The notes below the pieces were generated by a model. The model saw nothing but the letters and a program-made list of their open reading frames with translations. It ran no database searches and was not told where the DNA came from. This document shows positions 2,951 through 52,890 of a stretch of 64,000 nucleotides of DNA, in pieces. Numbering within the stretch: the stretch's first letter is position 1; each line of letters begins with the position of its first letter. The position numbers were made by a program, and so were the translations under genes. Source of the stretch: Malacoraja senta (lineage: Eukaryota); NCBI GenBank assembly GCA_038087875.1, contig CM075989.1, positions 20,772,001-20,836,000 on the forward strand, in the 5' to 3' direction.

Positions 2951-3053
2951 TCAAAGGGAGTGATCACCTTTTCTTACCAGTACCACAAAAATAAATTCCC
3001 CAGCCACTAATATACTTCCTGTGGAGATCAATAGACAATAGACAATAGACAAT

Positions 3054-6000
3054 TCATATCAAGCTTTTCAAAATAAAAAGAATAAGAATGAACAAAGACA
3101 GTTAGAAGAACTTATTAGACAAATGGATATAGATAATGCTAAAGATCCATCAATAGATAAACATAATAAAATAATAATTTTGAAATTTAAATTAAATAAA
3201 TTATTATCTGCCAAACTTATAAGACTTTTTCAAATTACAAAACAAGAGCACTTTGAATTTGGGGATAAACCGCATAAACTTTTGGCTCACCAGCTAAAAA
3301 AACGAGAAAAGGAACATACTATACCAAAGATCAAATCAGATAAAGGGGAATTATTAACAACACCGAAGGATATTAATAAAAGATTTGCGCAATTTTATGA
3401 TAATTTGTATACATCTAAAACGACAATTGATTCCAATAATATCACAAAGTTTTTGGATAACTGTAATCTTCCAAAGTTAGAGCTGAAGGAACAAGAGGAA
3501 TTGGGTGCACAAATCTCAATTAAGGAATTAGAAGATACAATAAACTCACTAAAGAATGGAAAAACACCAGGCCCTGATGGATTTACTAATGAATTTTATA
3601 AAAGCTTTTATGATAAAATAATACCAAGATTACAAAAAATGTACCAATATGCTTATAAAAAACGAATACTACCTGATACATTAGCGGAATCAACGATTAC
3701 ACTAATACCTAAGAAAAACAAAGATTTAGAAGAACCTGGTTCATATAGAGCTATAGCATTGTTAAACACAGATCAAAAAATATTAGCGAAAACATTAGCT
3801 AGAAGATTAAGTAAATACATTAGTAAATTAATAAACCCAGATCAGACGGGGTTTATCCCTAAGAGATATTCATCTAACAATATGAGACGTCTACTCAACA
3901 TAATGCACTCACACAAATCTGAAGATCAAGAATTATCAATTATTTCGCTGGATGCTGAAAAAGCATTTGATCAAGTAGAATGGAATTATATGGATAAAGT
4001 ATTACAAGAATTCCAACTGGGGGAGAATTTTATTCTATGGATCGTTACTATATAACAAACCTACAGCTAGAATACTAACTGATAACATATTATCCTCGAA
4101 ATTCCAACTATCAAGGGGAAATAGACAAGGATGCTCATTATCACCACAGCTGTTTGCTCTCATTATTGAACCGCTAGCAGAAAAAATTAGAATACACCCT
4201 GATATCCATGGATATAATACTAAAGACTCATATAATAAAATATCTTTATACGCGGATGATATATTACTGTACATTACAAAACCTCAAATCACTATACCAA
4301 ATATATTAAATTTAATTGAAGACTTTGGATCTTTTTATGGATATAGAATAAATTGGAATAAAAGTGAAATTATGTCAATAAAACCGAAAGATTCAACACA
4401 TCTTTTAAAATTCCCTTTTAAAATAGCGACAGAAAAATTTAAATATTGGGAATCGAAATTACCAGAACATATCAAGGTATGTTCAGGGCAAATTTTGACC
4501 CCCTACTTAATAAATTAAACACACGAATTAAATTCTGGAAAACGTTCCCGATGTCTTTAATAGGCCGAATAAACGCAATAAAAATGATCTTTCTACCACA
4601 AATTTTATACCTATTTCAATCGATTCCTATATACTTACCAAAGAAGTTTAAAAAAAAACTCGACTCAGATATCACTAATTTTATATGGGACTATAAATCA
4701 CATAGAATACAAAAAACTCATCTGAATAAACCTAAAGTATTGGGGGGTTTAGCACTACCTAACTTTATGTATTATTATTGGTCAGTAAATATTAAAAATA
4801 TGATTCAACTGATGGATAACTCCGCCCAGCAAGTGGACTGGATTGTAATGGAGAAAGAGGATTGCTCCTCTGGAAACATTGGAGCGATCCTCCTTTCTCC
4901 AATGAAATTGAATAACATAAATTATAATAAGAACCCAATTATTCATAATACAATCCGAATTTGGAAACAAATAAAACAAAATTTAAAATTAAGAAATTTA
5001 TCACTTTTATTACCAATAGTTAATAGCCCTTCGTTTAATCCCTCTATTATAGATAAAGCTTTTACACATTGGGATAGACTAGGAATTAAAACGCTTGGTG
5101 ACTTGTATGAAACTGGAAAATTACTTTCATTTCAACAATTACAAATAAAATATAAACTCGGAAATAATCAATATTTTAAATATTTTCAAATATGCGACTA
5201 TTTGAAAAAATATACAAAAGATCATTATAATAACCCAGTAGATGTATTGGATGAGGCAATGCAGATAAAAGCTGAATCAGCAAACTTAATATCATATTTG
5301 TATAATATTATCTTAAATGTACAAATACCATCTACGGAGGGTATCAGAAGAGACTGGGAACAAGAGTTAGCTATTAAAATTTCAAAGGAAAGTTGGAATG
5401 AACACTTATTAAACATGCATATAAATGTTTGATTAATGTAAGACACACTTTAATACAATTACAAATTTTACATAGATTATATTATTCGAAAACTAAAATT
5501 CATAAAATTTTCCCAAATGTATCATCTATTTGTGATAAATGTCAATCCCAAGAAGCTACTATAGCGCACTCATTCGTTTTCTGTACAAAAATTCAAAAAT
5601 TTTGGAATGACATTTTTGAAATCTTTACAAAGTTATTTAAAATAAGACTGATACCCAAAGCAGAATGGATTATCTTCGGAATAACGGAAGATGGCCCAGA
5701 ACTAAATGTGTTTCAAAAGAAACTAATGGACTATGGGTTAATAACTGGAAAAAAGCTAATTCTAAAATTTTGGAAGAAGTCTCCAATACTAACTATAAAT
5801 ATGTGGACTTCAAATATGTTCGAAACATTACACCTAGAAGAGATAAGACTCCTCCTAGCAGGTAAACCAGATCACTTCCACCTGACGTGGTCTGCATTTA
5901 TAGAATTATTACAAATATAGGGTGCAAAAGTACTTAAAAAAAAATTGAGGTCAGGTAAGGGGGGATGCTAGTTGAAGAGTTGGTATGTCCCATTTACGTA

Positions 6001-13558: not shown

Positions 13559-14225
13559 ATAATTCAGCTACTTCAACTAACGAAAGTATATTATATTGGT
13601 ACAAGGATACAAAGTGCTGGAGTGTCTCTGTTCTCCAGAGATGCTGCCTGACTTACTGAGTTATTCCAGCACTTTGTGTCATTTTGTGTAAGCCAGCATC
13701 TGCAGTTCCTTGATTCTATATTACATTGGTGATGTGCAATATAAAGCCATATACAGGCACTCCCCGACCTATATAATAGACGACTTATGTAAGCAGGCAC
13801 CTACCTGTACCTTGGTACATGTGACAATTATAAACTAAATTAAAAATCAGACCATGCTATACATGAGTACAATCAAGCCAAACCCAAGCCCAGATGGTAG
13901 AACAAATAGAAAGATGCCGACTGTAGAATATAGTTCTCAGCATCATAGCATGACCGTACTGGAGAAAACGTCCAATGTCCAATGTCCAAGATGAGGTAGG
14001 TTGGAGAATTGGGACTGTACCCTCGATTATGGAAGGGCCATTCAAAAAGTCTGTTAACAGAGAAGAACAAGCAGTTCCTGAGTCTGGTAATGTGAGCTTT
14101 CAAGCTTCTGTGACTTCTGGTCAACAGGAGCGGGGAGAAGATGGATTGACCGGGGGTTTGGAAGGTCCTTGTTTGTGTTGGCTGCTTTCCAGAAGCAATG
14201 AGTCTTCTTCGAGTCCGTTGCAATC

Positions 14226-17200
14226 TCAGATGTCATTCTGCCAGTATCTGGCGCAGGTCACAGCTGGTCGAGTCGGTTCAGCCAGGTCCTGGGGGCTGCA
14301 CTGGGGGGGGGGGGCGTCGTCACACTCCAGTAGGTGGGACATTGTCTGTACTGCTCCACAGCTGCATGTGTCTTATGCCTGGTAGTTCCATGCTTTCATA
14401 AGTGCTTTACACCTCCCCTGCTCCACTCGCATTCTGTTGAGGGTCTTCCAGGTTGGCCATGGGAGGTCGTGCCCGCTGGTGAGGCATTCAGTCGGAGTGA
14501 TTCCTCTCTCCATCCAGTCGTGGGCTCGTGTGTTGAGCTGGTTCCATTCATCTTTCCAGATGTTGGTCCTTGCTGTTTCTTTGGTTGTCTGGAGAGGTGG
14601 GACTGTCTGCAAGAAACTGGCTCTGGATTTCAGTCGGGGTGGAGGTGCTGTGTGTCCGTGCAGGGGGTGCCTGGTATCGATCTCCTGTGCTCTCCGCTCG
14701 TCTTGGGCGATGATGGATCGTCTGATATGGGGGGGGGGGCAATACCAGCTAGGGCGTAGAGGCACGGGACTGGCGTTGTCTTTATGCATCCCGTGATAAT
14801 GCGGCAGGTGTCATTGAGTGCTGTGTCAACCAGTTTGGTGTGGTGGGAGCGGCTCCAGCTTGAGCAAGCGTATTCAGCTGTGGAGAAGCACAGGGCTAGG
14901 GCAGTTGCACGGATGGTTGGTGGATCAGCGCCCCACTTTGAGTTTACCAGTTTGCGCAGGATGTTGTTGCGAGTGTTTACCTTGGCTTTGGTGTTCTGAA
15001 GGTGGGTTTTGAAAGAGAGTGTCCTGTCGAGTGTGACTCCGAGGTACACGGGGTGGAAGTGGTTGGAAATCCCATGAGACGCTCAGTTGTTTTCCTGCAT
15101 CTCGATTTCTAAGATGGAAGCTGCATAGTTTAAGGATAAGGGGGAAATCCTTTAAGACCGAGATGAGGAAAAACGTTTTCACACAGAGAGTGGTGAATCT
15201 CTGGAACTCTCTGCCACAGAGGGTAGTTGAGGCCAGTTCATTGGCTATATTTAAGAGGGAGTTAGATGTGGCCCTTGTGGCTAAAGGGATCAGGGGGTAT
15301 GGAGAGAAGGCAGGTACGGGATACTGAGTTGGATGATCAGCCATGATCATATTGAATGGCGGTGCAGGCTCGAAGGGCCGAATGGCCTACTCCTGCACCT
15401 ATTTTCTATGTATCTATAGTTGGGTTTTTGATGGGTTGGGTTTCAGGTGGTTGTTATTGTAGTAGGTTGTCATCTCTTGGAGGGTGCTTTCCAGGACAGG
15501 CTCAATCTTCTGGAAGTTCTCCTGTTGGGTGGTGATGCAGAGGTCATCAGCATAGATGAAGCGGCGGCATTGTGGGGGAAGTGGTTGGTCATTGGTGTAG
15601 ATGTTGAAGAGGAGGGGGGCCAGTACGCTGCCTTGTGGTAGGCCATTCTTTTGGGCTTTCCATTTGCTCTTCTTGTCGTTTAGTTGGACGAAGAAGCGCC
15701 TGTTGTTTAGAAGGCTTTTGATGACTTGGCACAGGTCGAGGTCACCAGTCATGTCAAAAAGTTTCCTGATCATGGTTCGGTGCTGGACAGTGTCGTAAGC
15801 AGCGGTGAGGTCTATGAAAGCTGCTCCGGTGATGAGTTTGCACTCGAAACCGTCCTCAATGTGTTGGGTGAGGTTCAGTAGCTGCCCGGCACAGGAGCGG
15901 CCAGGGCGGAAACCACCTTGATCTTTAGTAAGCTTTGAGTCTATAAGTGGCATAAGGCGTTGGAGTAGTAGCCTCTCGTAGAGATTGTAGGTGATGCAGA
16001 GGAGGGAAATAGGTCTGTAGCTCTTTGGGGATGATGGGTCCTTTCCAGGTTTTGGAATTGCGACAGTCTTGGCCTTTCTCCATACAGGTGGGGTTGTTTT
16101 CTGTGCCATGCATGAGTTCAGCATTGCTAGGAGCCAGATCTTTGCTTTAGGTCCAAGGTGCTGTATCATTTCCGTCAGTACATCATCGATTCCTGCTGCT
16201 TTCCCAGGCTTCAGCATGCTCATTGCAGCTTCGAGGTCTTCTAGGTCGAAGGGCTTGGTGAGAGCGCTGGCTGGTTGCAGGCCGTCTGTTACCGCTGTCC
16301 GGCGGTATTCTCCTGTGGGTCTGCGGCGGTTTTGGCTACGACCGTTTGCCACCAGCTGTGCTGCAACTGAGTTTGCTGTGACTGTTGTGAGTGTGGGCGG
16401 TGTGGTATGGTCTTCGCCGAGGCGGCGGATTGTGGCCCATGCCTTCCTGCTGTTATTGGTCATGTCGGTGTTTTCTATCAACTCCTTCCAGACTTGCCTT
16501 CGGTCCTCCCCGACTGTGTTCAACAGGATCTCTCCGAGTTCCATGGTGGTGGAGGAGAAAGGGTCCTCGTGGTATGTCCTGTGGTAGGCTTTCAGTAGAT
16601 CGCTGGATGTTTCCGACAGCCCGGGGATGTACTCAGTCTGGCATCCTCTTGGTATATGTCGCCTGGCTGACCTTTTCAACAGTTCTATGAACATGGTAGA
16701 GTTGTTGGGGTGTGATGGAATGCTGGGGATGGAGTCTTCGATCTCCTGTTGGAATGACAGACAGTCGGCCTTCCGCAGATTGAACCTTCTGCGGAAGGGG
16801 ACGGTTGTTGCTTGGAGAGCGGATCGGATGGTTATGGTAATTGGCCGGTGTTGCGTATGGGGGATAGGGTCCAGGACCTCTTTCACAGCTCTGGGTGATA
16901 GTTCGCTGCTCACACAAACAAGGTCTGGGTTATATCCTCGTTTCCATCTGGCACCGTGAAAAGATTTTGGCAGTTTGGCGTCATGGATCAGGGTCAGGTG
17001 TTTCGACTCGAGCCAGGTTTCGACTTCATCTCCATCTTGATTGTTCACTTCATAGCCCCACAATGAGCTATGGGCATTGAAGTCCCCAATGCTAATGTGG
17101 TATTTCCTCTTGCATCTGTCTGGCCGTTCAGAGTGGAGGAACGGACTTTGGGGGGGGGGTTTATACACTGATGTGACAGAGATGTTCGGGAGGGCGGCTG

Positions 17201-17506
17201 TGATGGTCTCCATTTGCCCTTCGGTGGTGTGGGTGCAGACCTCTTCGATCGCGAGGTTTGGTCTGCTGAATACAGCTGACCCATACTGTCTGTGTCGGAT
17301 CTCGGCCACCAGCTTCATTCCAGGGATGGCTGGTCGGTGTTGTGTAGGGCCGATGTGGGTTCCTGCATGCACACTAAGTCGAAGCGTTTGGCCGCTGTCG
17401 CTAGTATGTCTGCCTTGCATCTGGAGAAGCCTTCAATATTGATTGAGGCGATTGACAGTGCAGGCCCCGAGGAGGGCGAGTGTCTGTGGCGCTTCGGCAT
17501 CGTCAT
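14226..17506 (-). pseudogene. Disrupted endonuclease/reverse transcriptase ORF of the Vingi-type element
   Basis: APE motifs SINIEG, CMQE, GDFNAH, YNPDL and TQHRP; RT motifs YRPISLL, DLTAAYD, GLPQGSVLAP, YADD and YLGVTLD; C-terminal CSC..H..C. Broken by a frameshift near 17360, the CR1 insertion at 15131-15415, a frameshift in the G-run near 14730 and a stop at 14373-14375. Confidence 0.93.
15131..15415 (+). mobile_element. Young CR1 (HER1-like) 3' fragment nested in the Vingi RT region
   Basis: Encodes LRIRG..F.TEMR...FTQRVVNLWNSLP. Duplication atagtt at 15125-15130 and 15416-15421. Removing it restores KTQLCSFHLRNR. Confidence 0.9.
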
Positions 17507-17529
17507 CTAATAGATTGCTTGGGTAGGTG

Positions 17530-17623
17530 CACAGATAATGGCCTACTGGTGGTAATAATATCAAATTATACCATTCAGTGTTTCCCAGGCTGCACCACGG
17601 GAAGGTTTCTGTATTAGCAGCCC
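17530..17623 (-). ncRNA. HDV-like self-cleaving ribozyme at the 5' end of the Vingi-type LINE
   Basis: Minus strand: P1 GGGCUGC/GCAGCCU (G1-U wobble), P3 ACC/GGU, L3 UUCCCGU, GG available for P1.1, P4 hairpin ACUG..UGGUAUAAU/AUUAUUACCA..CAGU, P2 UACAGA/UCUGUG. G1 coincides with the TSD-defined element boundary. J4/2 is atypical (GGCCAUUA). Confidence 0.8.
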
Positions 17624-24204: not shown

Positions 24205-24399
24205 GATGGCCCCATAGCAGAAGCGTCCACGTCGCGGGGCTGGAAACTGGAAGTATCCTGAGCTAATTCTGCTACCCACTTCATCCATGGTGACAAGTGA
24301 TGGCTCCCACTGATTGTCGCCGGAAGCTTGTGTCCTTTTCAGGACGGACGATGACAGCGAGGTCAACATTTGTAGCAAGATGGACACGAAAAGAAGAAG
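24205..24399 (+). mobile_element. Short non-autonomous retroelement (~190 nt) with HDV-like ribozyme head and Vingi-like tail, copy 2
   Basis: TSD atttgtgcat (24195-24204 and 24400-24409). Tail ggacacgaaaagaagaag. Homologous to 13369-13558 in the opposite orientation. No tRNA A/B boxes seen. Confidence 0.88.
24208..24274 (+). ncRNA. CPEB3/HDV-like ribozyme, fold apparently intact
   Basis: GGCCCC A UAGCAGAA GCG UCCACGU CGC GGGGCU GG AAACUGGAAGUAUCCUGAG CUAA UUCUGCUA. P1 is 6 bp with G1-U, P2 is a perfect 8 bp, P3 is 3 bp, P1.1 is CC/GG, and J4/2 is CUAA with the putative catalytic C at 24263. Confidence 0.88.
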
Positions 24400-24869: not shown

Positions 24870-26045
24870 TGAAAGTGGATTCACAGGTGGATGGGGTGGT
24901 GAAGAAGGCATTTCATTCATTGGCCTTCATCAGTCAGGGTATTGAGTGTAGAAGTTGGGACACTATGTTACAGTTGTACAAGACATAGGTAAAACCCCGC
25001 TCAGAGTATTGTTTTCCATTTGTGTCATGCTACCATAGGATGGATGAGAAAAAGTAGCTGGGAAAAGTACAGGGAATTTACAGAATGTTGTCAGGACTCG
25101 AGGCCTGAGCTACAGAGAGAGGGTGGGCAGGCTAGCACTTTATTCCTTGTTGTGCATGAGGCTGAGGGTCTAAAAAATCACACGGAAAATAGTTGGAGTG
25201 AATGCACAGAATCTTTTTCTGATGGAGAGGAATCAAGATCGAGAGGGCACAGGTTTAAGATGAGAGGGGAAAGTCTTAAAATGAACCTGAGAGGCAACCT
25301 AATCACACAGAGGATGGTTGGTACATGGATCGAGCTGCCAGAGGAAAGGGCCTGTCCCACCAGCATGCGACTGCACGCGGCAAGCGTGACCTAACGCGGT
25401 CGCTTGAGCCGTACGGCCTCGCGGGGCCGGTCCCACTTCGATCGCCGGAGCCGTATGGAGTTGTGCGGAGCTGGTCCCGACATCGCGCGGGGCTCCGAAA
25501 AACTGACTGCCCAAAAATTCCGCGCGGCAACGGCCTGCCGGCCCACAGCCGCATTGAGGCCGTACGCACCGCCTCGTCGGGCATGCGCAGCGTCTCGACG
25601 CCGTACGCAGCTTCTTGACGCAGTACGCAGCGTCTTGACGGCGTACGCCTAGCGCGAACTTCCCGCGGACTTCGCTCGAACTTCACGTCATCTCTTACGG
25701 GATCACTCGACCTCCGCGCGGCCCTGCTTCCGGTTTGCTCGCGCTCGCCGCCATGCAGTCGCATGCCTGGGGGACCGGCCCTGTACGAGGATCACTCGAC
25801 CTCCGCGCGACCCCCGCGCGGCCCCCGCTTCCGGTTTTGGTCGCGCTTGCCGGCATGCAGTCGCATGCTGGTGGGACCGGCCCTGTACGGGGCTCACTCG
25901 ACCTCCGCTCGACCTCCGCGCGACCCCCGCGCGGACCCCGCTTCCGGTTTGGTCGCGCTTGCCGCATGCAGTCGCATGCTCGTGGGACAGGCCTGAAGTA
26001 GTTGAGAGATGTACTATAACAGCATTTAAAAGATACTTAGAGAGG
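24870..26045 (+). mobile_element. Degenerate CR1 ORF2 3' region interrupted by a MITE
   Basis: SRGHRFKMRG..ITQRMVGTWIELPEE continues as gtagttgag after the MITE at 25347-25994. Confidence 0.75.
25347..25994. mobile_element. CpG-rich Harbinger-type MITE with triplicated right-end module
   Basis: TIR agg(g)cctgtcccac(c/g)agcatgcgactgca; GAA TSD (25344-25346 and 25995-25997). Confidence 0.85.
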
Positions 26046-27827: not shown

Positions 27828-27991
27828 TTACATTTCACCCCTCTCATGTTAAAGCTATGCCCTCTGGCCTTCTTCTTATCAAGTCCACACACAAGATTAG
27901 AAGTTGTTCAGCCAGAGCTGAACACACATCTCAGCATCTGCATACAATGGTGTCTGTCTTGTTGCTTCTTGTGCTTCTTGTGCGTGGTGGT

Positions 27992-28045
27992 GGAAAGATT
28001 GGTGGAAACAAGGGCCGCGACGTGAACGCTCTTTCCTTGACCCCA
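27992..28045 (-). ncRNA. Minimal (P4-less) CPEB3/HDV-like ribozyme fold
   Basis: Minus strand: (U)GGGGUC AA GGAAAGA GCG UUCACGU CGC GGCCCUU GU UUCCA CCAA UCUUUCC. P2 is a perfect 7 bp, P3 is GCG/CGC and L3 is UUCACGU. Followed by the tail acgcacaagaagcacaagaagcaacaaga to 27957. Confidence 0.78.
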
Positions 28046-28827
28046 TGCCCTCTGGTAAACAGGGAGGTAAATTGATGCGGAAAAAAACTTGATAACATTT
28101 TTTAATTGATATATACACTGGCAACTTTTTGTCCACAAAAAAACCACAGGGTTTGTTAATGGTACAATCAAAAATTGCAGAATCTCTCCAATTTACTCTA
28201 CACTATCCAATTTTGTGGGAAGGAACTGCAGATGCTGGTTTACAATGAAGATAGACACAAAATGCCGGAGTAACTCAGCGGGACTGGGTACATCGTTGAT
28301 AGAAGGCATGGGTGACGTTTCGGGTCGAGACCCTTCTTCAGACTCATTTCTGAAGTCCAGTCTGAAGAAGGGTCACGCCCCGAAACATCACCCATTCCTT
28401 CCAACCAGAGATGCTGAGTTACTCCAGCATTTTGTGTCTATCCACACTGTCCATTTGATGTGGTCTCATCGAAATCTTATGTCACGCTTTGGATTGTGTT
28501 CTTTAAACTGAGGGTATTTGCAGTTTTGTACAAGTTCCCTGCATCAGTTTAGTTGTTACTTTGTTCAAAATCCATGAGAAGAGTTGATGGAAGATGTTTG
28601 TACTAATACTTCATATTTTACATTCAATGGAAGCAGCTTCAAAGAATTGATGTAAACTTGTTCTTCTTTTGTTTTAAATACTTAGCTTTCTCCATTGAGG
28701 AAAGGCAAGCGGGAGGTGTTGATTCCAATGCTGAACTACGATTTACCTCTTTGGTAACGCTCGGACGATCCTTGATCGGACTTTGCTGGCTTTACCTTGC
28801 ACTAAACGTTATTCCCTTATCATATCC

Positions 28828-52262: not shown

Positions 52263-52399
52263 ATGCCCTCAAGTTTACCCCCCTGGGAGAAAAGTTCTGA
52301 CTGTCCACCATATTTATGCCTCTCATAATTTTATCTACTTCTATTGGGTCTCCCCTCAAAGGTTTGGAGGGATATGGGCCAAAGGCAGGAAGGTGGGAC

Positions 52400-52890
52400 G
52401 AGTGTAGATTGGGCATGTTGGTCGGCATGGTGGTACCAGTGTGGATGGGCATGTTGGTTGGCATGGTGGTACCAGTGTGGATGGGCATGTTGGTTGGCAT
52501 GGTGTGGAAGGTGTAGATGGGGCATGTTGGTCGGCATGGTGGTACTAAGTGTAGATGGGGCATGTTGGTTGCATGGTGGGACGTGTAGATGGGGCATGTT
52601 GGTTGGTGTGGTCGTACTAGTGTAGATGGGGCATGTTGGTTGCATGGTGGGACGTGTAGATGGGGCATGTTGGTTGCATGGTGGTACCAGTGTAGATGGG
52701 GCATGTTGGTTGCATGGTGGGACGTGTAGATGGGGCATGTTGGTCGGCGTGGTGGTACTAAGTGTAGATGGGGCATGTTGGTTGCATGGTGGGACGTGTA
52801 GATGGGGCATGTTGGTTGGTGTGGTCGTACTAGTGTAGGTGGGGCATGTTGGTTGTTGTGGTGGGACAAGTGTAGATGGGGCATGTTGGT
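52400..52890 (+). repeat. Minisatellite (about 33-38-bp unit, roughly 14 copies) amplified from a CR1 3' UTR
   Basis: Unit gtgtagatggggcatgttggttgcatggtgggac and variants, following the CR1 sequence ggagggatatgggccaaaggcagg. Confidence 0.9.

What the first reader, a model, noticed from the sequence alone, without database searches (positions are those of the whole stretch)
27957..28045. Ultra-short (~90 nt) element: a P4-less CPEB3-like ribozyme plus a repeat tail
Seen: GCGUUCACGUCGCGGCCCUUGU, which closely matches the CPEB3 P3-L3-P1-GU segment as recalled. It has a different but perfectly paired P2 (GGAAAGA/UCUUUCC), only about 5 nt where P4 would be, J4/2 CCAA, then (cacaagaag)2. The flanks atggtgtctg and atgccctctg (7/10 identical) may be a decayed TSD. 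The different P2 sequence amounts to natural covariation against the 24208 copy and supports the fold. Inference: this may be a near-minimal selfish RNA made of ribozyme plus RT-recognition tail. Position 1 is a U-U mismatch in this copy.
Basis: partly seen in the sequence, partly recalled or inferred. Interest (0 to 1): 0.8.

Follow-up and report, generated by a model that had tools for sequence, protein, structure and literature searches.

The report
Vingi mini-retrotransposon with minimal CPEB3-type ribozyme
This is the front half of a 177-base jumping element, copied hundreds of times in this genome, that begins with a stripped-down RNA predicted to cut itself; related jumping genes here carry a version about 90% identical to the ribozyme in the mammalian memory-linked CPEB3 gene, which likely shows where that ribozyme came from.

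Summary
The P4-less CPEB3-like fold is real (minus strand, 28044-27992; Rfam RF00622 36.2 bits), but the element is not ~90 nt. It is 177 nt (28044-27868) with a perfect 11-nt target-site duplication. At least 424 copies exist. The last ~75 nt match the 3' end of an APE+RT LINE of Vingi type, so this is a non-autonomous internal-deletion derivative, a known kind, with a 52-nt minimal HDV-like ribozyme of a type reported almost only from phages. Cleavage was not tested and the parent's 5' end was not found. Larger lead: several Vingi-type LINE families here carry CPEB3-type ribozymes (up to 64 bits). One matches the mammalian consensus at 57-58 of 63 non-loop positions, including the whole P4 stem. 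The mammalian CPEB3 ribozyme, described as lacking non-mammalian outgroups, likely derives from a Vingi 5' end.

The parts
27868..28044 (-). Whole non-autonomous element (family A), 177 nt in this copy; family mode 175 nt
   Evidence: depth steps and loose ends at 27869 and 28044-28046 in other organisms' runs
27992..28044 (-). Minimal HDV/CPEB3-type ribozyme fold: P1 28044-28039 with 28016-28011 (G1.U), J1/2 2 nt, P2 28036-28030 with 27998-27992, P3 28029-28027 with 28019-28017, L3 28026-28020, one-pair P1.1 G at 28009, 5-nt linker instead of P4 28007-28003, J4/2 28002-27999 (predicted catalytic C 28002)
   Evidence: sequence; Rfam; per-copy parse of 63 loci; cross-family covariation. Cleavage not tested
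28010..28010 (-). Extra U private to this copy, between P1' and the P1.1 G; may weaken this copy
   Evidence: 2 of 63 loci; table 4
27944..27991 (-).
27868..27943 (-). 3' part taken from a Vingi-type LINE: last ~14 codons and stop (27899-27897), a 7-bp hairpin (27923-27906), short 3' UTR and (AAG)3 tail
   Evidence: 85-92% identical to 9 LINE 3' ends, further loci; stop-anchored score second of 2884 in the window
28045..28055 (.). Target-site duplication, 5' side (11 nt, perfect)
27857..27867 (.). Target-site duplication, 3' side (11 nt, perfect)
24208..24399 (+). Sister family B (~192 nt): 6-bp P1, two-pair P1.1, P4 region present; internal-deletion derivative of LINE L091
13367..13558 (-). 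Second family B copy in the window
14204..17623 (-). Full-length Vingi-type LINE (family V1; APE+RT, interrupted by a ~290-nt repeat), 11-nt TSD, similar 3' terminus; not the parent of family A

Best explanation
The stretch is the 5' half of a ~175-nt non-coding retrotransposon, present in at least 424 copies with 11-12-nt target-site duplications, whose 3' ~75 nt match the end of a Vingi-type LINE and whose first 52 nt fold as a P4-less HDV/CPEB3-type RNA predicted to self-cleave. Shown: copy number, ends, TSDs, 3' homology to an APE+RT LINE, the fold and its covariation across families. Inferred: the element is transcribed by read-through or an internal promoter; the ribozyme cuts 5' of G1 and so fixes the RNA's 5' end; the LINE protein recognises the 3' hairpin and AAG tail in trans and inserts the copy by target-primed reverse transcription, so new copies start exactly at G1. 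It likely arose by internal deletion of the LINE. Also inferred (about 0.7): this ribozyme subtype, carried by one clade of Vingi-type LINEs here, is homologous to the mammalian CPEB3 ribozyme.
For: 424 exact matches of a 36-nt core, control 0. TSD in 22 of 26 loci with a tail (of 30), control 0 of 26; 19 of 22 are 11-12 nt. 8 of 37 copies sit in other repeats whose paralogues are contiguous across the junction. 9 of 12 hits of a pattern designed to exclude family A are LINE 3' ends sharing the last 70-76 nt at 85-92%. Sister family B shares both its 5' and 3' ends with LINE L091. LINE ORF has APE and RT and no RNase H hit. Element 5' end equals G1. 12 of 24 pairs change on both sides across 16 sequences, 0 of 500 shuffles reach it, slid controls 3-7. 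6-bp P1 is within the known range (PMC4908430 passage); active P4-less forms exist (PMC10879173).
Against: No cleavage assay; the one raw RNA run (poly-A, 6% read) showed no pile-up of ends, which such a library may not show. No copy of the parent LINE reaching its 5' end was found, so 5'-part ancestry and the point at which P4 was lost are open. MFE folding prefers a rival in which the P1 5' strand pairs with the downstream ACCACC, and z-scores are not significant; the program cannot model pseudoknots. An HMM test of the 3' peptide was negative. Copy statistics come from loci selected for an intact ribozyme. Covariation counts are inflated by relatedness. No reference Vingi protein was available, so the clade label rests on architecture.
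Confidence: 0.85

Rival explanations
1. Same element, but the ribozyme is a dead relic: P4 and one P1 pair were lost by deletion, and the precise 5' end comes from an internal (Pr77-like) promoter starting at G1.
For: Rival fold has the lowest predicted energy; L1Tc's 77-nt head is both promoter and ribozyme (PMC8256844 passage); no cleavage data.
Against: Both P1 strands are one base shorter than in the 7-bp relatives and P2 differs from relatives by paired changes; J4/2 C kept in 63 of 63 parsed loci (biased sample); P1 duplex (-8.1) beats the rival duplex (-5.5 kcal/mol).
Confidence: 0.2
2. The likeness between these LINE ribozymes and the mammalian CPEB3 ribozyme is convergence on a constrained fold, not descent.
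For: R2 and HDV ribozymes share 21 of 27 core nucleotides (PMC8256844 passage); only ~63 informative positions; no mammalian flank could be compared here.
Against: The match covers P2 and the P4 stem (7 of 7 pairs in family C), outside the core; ribozyme-like heads of LINE families outside this clade gave no CPEB3 match at E<=0.5; the human genome holds Vingi traces (PMC5753468).
Confidence: 0.25
3. One reading: a self-contained ~90-nt element of ribozyme plus 9-nt repeat tail.
For: The 9-nt repeat exists.
Against: 24 of 30 pattern-picked loci carry the LINE-derived tail 150-177 nt from the start and the other 6 are broken or interrupted; the perfect TSD lies at 177 nt.
Confidence: 0.02

Closest known systems
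Bipartite non-autonomous LINEs: NARTc/RIME (L1Tc/Ingi), Vingi-1_EE derivatives, R2 SIDEs (Kojima 2018, PMC5786205; Sanchez-Luque 2014, PMC4035085)
   Same: Short, no ORF, LINE 3' end, TSDs, HDV-like fold at the 5' end; only RTE, Ingi, Vingi and R2 are reported to make such elements.
   Different: [quoted passage not shown]
Mammalian CPEB3 ribozyme (Rfam RF00622)
   Same: Identical P3, L3 and one-pair P1.1 junction, G1.U; window copy passes the Rfam cut-off narrowly; LINE-borne relatives reach 64 bits.
   Different: 6-bp P1, no P4, different P2, hundreds of dispersed copies in a retroelement rather than one conserved intronic copy in mammals; a typical copy (L002) scores 31.8, below cut-off.
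Minimal HDV-like ribozymes (drz-Mtgn-1) and theta ribozymes (Kienbeck 2024, PMC10879173)
   Same: P4 absent, ~52-56 nt, catalytic C first in J4/2.
   Different: Those were ~99% in phages, often beside tRNAs; this one heads an animal retrotransposon.

Membership tests
HDV-like ribozymes | Nested double pseudoknot (P1, P2, P3, P1.1) with 6-7 bp P1 | tested here: met
   range from PMC4908430; P1.1 has one C-G pair as in CPEB3
HDV-like ribozymes | G1.U at the cleavage site and catalytic C in J4/2 | tested here: met
   P1 5' strand intact in 53 of 63 loci, J4/2 CCAA in 62 of 63
HDV-like ribozymes | Self-cleavage 5' of G1 | not testable with these tools
   no assay; element 5' end coincides with G1
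Mammalian CPEB3 ribozyme (RF00622) | Score above Rfam cut-off 35 | tested here: inconclusive
   window copy 36.2; typical copy 31.8
Mammalian CPEB3 ribozyme (RF00622) | 7-bp P1 and P4 hairpin | tested here: not met
   6-bp P1 and 5-nt linker; met by LINE families V2, C, D, E
Mammalian CPEB3 ribozyme (RF00622) | Single conserved copy in a CPEB3 intron | tested here: not met
   424+ dispersed copies; the host's cpeb3 gene was not examined
Non-autonomous bipartite LINE (Vingi/Ingi type) | 3' end shared with an autonomous-type LINE | tested here: met
Non-autonomous bipartite LINE (Vingi/Ingi type) | 5' end shared with the same LINE | tested here: inconclusive
   parent found only 5'-truncated; met for sister family B; related LINEs start with a similar ribozyme
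Non-autonomous bipartite LINE (Vingi/Ingi type) | Dispersed copies with TSDs and no coding capacity | tested here: met
Vingi clade (partner LINE) | Single ORF, APE + RT, no RNase H | tested here: met
   1014-aa frame of L107: RVT_1 and Exo_endo_phos, no RNase H hit at E<=1; definition from PMC13708176. Parent family is 52% identical to it over the aligned RT/C-terminal part
Vingi clade (partner LINE) | RT phylogeny with reference Vingi and Ingi elements | not testable with these tools
   no reference sequences held; the name Vingi rests on architecture and recall
Theta ribozymes | Phage location, cleavage site at a tRNA 3' end | tested here: not met
   animal retroelement; upstream flanks differ in every copy
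Classical SINE | tRNA/7SL/5S-derived head upstream of the LINE-derived part | tested here: not met
   element starts at G1 with no shared upstream sequence; no such Rfam hit there

The most novel reading that the evidence does not exclude
The mammalian CPEB3 ribozyme is a domesticated 5' end of a Vingi retrotransposon. One Vingi clade in this genome still carries the ribozyme subtype, from a near-identical full form (family C) down to a 52-nt P4-less form (this finding), giving the missing outgroups for CPEB3 ribozyme evolution and a natural minimal HDV-like ribozyme in an animal retroelement.
Probability: 0.65. Interest if true: 0.8.

Novelty: new variant of a known kind. Interest (0 to 1): 0.62.

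Why it matters
Bendixsen et al. [quoted passage not shown] 2024 found minimal P4-less forms almost only in phages. This genome offers both: retroelement-borne CPEB3-type ribozymes that make the origin question testable, and a high-copy minimal variant. A natural 175-nt template also marks the 5' and 3' sequence a Vingi protein may need, which bears on Vingi-based gene-insertion platforms (PMC13708176).

Tried and rejected
Parent LINE 5' end: long-P4 pattern gave 2 hits, both family A copies with a duplication; walking 5' reached only about residue 184 of the reference ORF; ribozyme-to-ORF pattern gave 1 hit, a family A copy. HMM of 21 LINE C-termini did not detect the family A peptide; the stop-anchored score was designed after seeing the motif. 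RTE/Rex3 partner was my first guess (recall); dropped once the 3' match to the Vingi-type LINE appeared. MFE folding is uninformative for the pseudoknot. No RNA holder listed; RNA reads of organism B cover the element on both strands but cannot be tied to this copy. No empty orthologous site among the joints shown (15 of 53; 15 of 276). Descriptor scan missed the V1 head, where I could not place J4/2 and P2. Earlier-findings look-ups by sequence, place and three words were empty. PDB and Atlas searches only confirmed a non-LTR RT. Papers not held: Ruminski 2011, a PMC id I recalled for Webb and Luptak 2011, Riccitelli 2014, Kojima 2011. No supplements were read.

Full report
Observation. The flagged stretch reads on the minus strand as an HDV/CPEB3-type fold. 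Rfam gives two hits in the window, both RF00622: 24196-24273 (+, 39.7 bits) and 28053-27992 (-, 36.2 bits; cut-off 35).

Boundaries. A genome search with 27940-28060 gave 1420 candidates, 40 scored; the 39 other copies are 93-99% identical and all match to the query's 3' end. The 30 loci fetched share sequence from G 28044 through an AAG tail about 175 nt later, with unrelated flanks. Of 30 loci, 26 had a recognisable tail; 22 of these have a TSD of 9-13 nt (19 are 11-12 nt) against 0 of 26 shifted controls; element length 168-186, mode 175; the base before G1 is T in 24 of 30. The window copy has a perfect 11-nt TSD at 28055-28045 and 27867-27857. An exact 36-nt core occurs 424 times, control 0, a lower bound. 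Among the first 30 of those loci, 24 carry the same tail within 150-177 nt and 6 are broken or interrupted.

Fold. Parsing 63 distinct loci, all picked for an intact core and so biased: P1 5' strand 53, P2 57 and 60, L3 61, J4/2 62; the extra U of the window copy is in 2. P1 is 6 bp with G1.U, so the U-U mismatch is not a family trait. The T before G1 also precedes most 7-bp-P1 V1 LINE copies shown, so it is likely a target preference. Webb 2016 (passages) says most HDV-like ribozymes have a 6- or 7-bp P1. Across 16 sequences from six families, 12 of 24 pairs change on both sides; 0 of 500 shuffles reach this and slid controls give 3-7; relatedness inflates it, and the 'further pair types' measure did not exceed shuffles (324/500). 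Against activity: MFE folding pairs the P1 5' strand downstream and z-scores are not significant. Cleavage is untested.

Partner. The window holds a full-length APE+RT LINE at 17623-14204 with an 11-nt TSD and a similar terminus. Its N-terminal domain found 585 candidates, 150 scored, in at least eight families. A pattern built to exclude family A gave 12 hits: 9 are LINE 3' ends sharing the last 70-76 nt at 85-92%, 3 are family A loci; more followed. All parent copies found are 5'-truncated, so its 5' end is unseen. Family B (24208; 2064 candidates, 40 scored; TSD in 22 of 30) shares 57 and 72 nt at the 5' side and 19 nt at the 3' end with LINE L091, showing the internal-deletion route directly. 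A related 1014-aa frame has APE and RT and no RNase H hit, the Vingi layout as given in PMC13708176 (passages). No reference Vingi sequence was compared; the name rests on layout and recall.

Mobility and age. 8 of 37 copies with TSDs lie in other repeats whose paralogues run unbroken across the junction. Non-CpG divergence from the majority in the 3' part is 2.9% (25 copies) and 4.5% (22 copies), biased low. The family is abundant with the same ends in runs of coded organisms A-E and G. Contigs of organisms E and G bridge this copy's 5' junction with 7-9 other letters, so this insertion is likely shared and older than their split; no empty orthologous site was among the joints shown.

CPEB3 link. 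Of 14 LINE loci scanned, the 6 of family V2 pass RF00622 (40.7-64.2 bits); the other 8 give no CPEB3 match at E<=0.5. A genome scan scored only 59 candidates: 51 matches, 39 over cut-off, in families V2, A, C, D, E. Family E heads a full LINE; family C sits on 5'-inverted LINE insertions, two with TSDs read by eye; D was not tied to a LINE. By hand count, the majority of five family C copies matches the Rfam consensus at 57-58 of 63 positions outside loop L4, including all 7 P4 pairs, with one paired change in P2; the single copy L154 matches 54 of 67. A FastTree of 20 loci groups C, V2, E and the parents of A and B apart from the other families (support 0.89; 45-56% identity among them; rooted arbitrarily). 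[quoted passage not shown] Kojima 2018 (passages) lists Vingi traces in the human genome. Against: core convergence is known, R2 and HDV sharing 21 of 27 core bases (PMC8256844 passages, which also notes structure-based relatives in non-mammals); no mammalian flank was compared.

What is known. [quoted passage not shown] Minimal P4-less forms were ~99% phage (PMC10879173, passages and parts 1-2 of 7). De la Pena 2020 suggests domestication of intronic ribozymes in general (passages). Ten library searches (listings only) showed no paper naming Vingi as the CPEB3 donor or a P4-less ribozyme on an animal retroelement. Four key papers were not held, Repbase was not searchable and no supplements were read, so prior description is not excluded. 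Also seen without effect on the reading: PMC6007223 (abstract), PMC10919898, PMC13635239, PMC3747384 (passages).

Verdict. Real feature, wrongly bounded. The element is a new variant of a known kind (0.85). Its ribozyme is probably active in typical copies (about 0.7). The strongest value is the lead on the CPEB3 ribozyme's origin (about 0.65). Interest 0.62.

Noticed in passing
L154, L156, L158, L164, L167 (about 1501-1579): Family C: ribozyme heads of an older Vingi-type LINE, the closest match to the mammalian CPEB3 consensus including the P4 stem.
   Followed up: partly
L188:1500-2340, L196:1500-3010, L197, L167: 5'-inverted insertions in which the inverted piece is the extreme 5' ~105 nt with G1 at or near the junction; four of five family C ribozymes found are in this arrangement. 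Unexplained.
   Followed up: partly
L107:5116-5316, L108:5169-5318: Long-ORF V2 LINE copies with several tandem 26-nt repeats of the ribozyme's P1-P3 part at their 5' end.
   Followed up: no
window 14204-17623 (-): Full-length V1 LINE whose head has P1, P3 and the GG of P1.1 but no J4/2 C and P2 that I could place; the same in all V1 copies seen.
   Followed up: partly
window 27991-27984 and equivalents in families B-E, V1: An ACCAC-like motif follows P2' in most families; it can pair with the P1 5' strand in family A. Possible promoter element or off-switch.
   Followed up: partly
L157, L160, L166, L168: Family D: CPEB3-type ribozyme with a short 5-bp P4, an intermediate towards P4 loss; partner not identified.
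   Followed up: no
window 27868-28044, run X23: Poly-A reads of organism B lie more on one strand than the other over the element (about 70-100 versus 13-49); if the library is stranded, sense copies are under-represented.
   Followed up: no
window 3042-5920 (+): Frameshifted LINE ORF with an RT domain, unrelated to the finding.
   Followed up: no
window 52392-52890 and 25708-25993: Tandem arrays of ~37-nt and ~102-nt units.
   Followed up: no
L313:8200-9090: Broken sequence resembling an LTR-element or retroviral pol remnant next to a truncated parent LINE piece (resemblance by eye).
   Followed up: no
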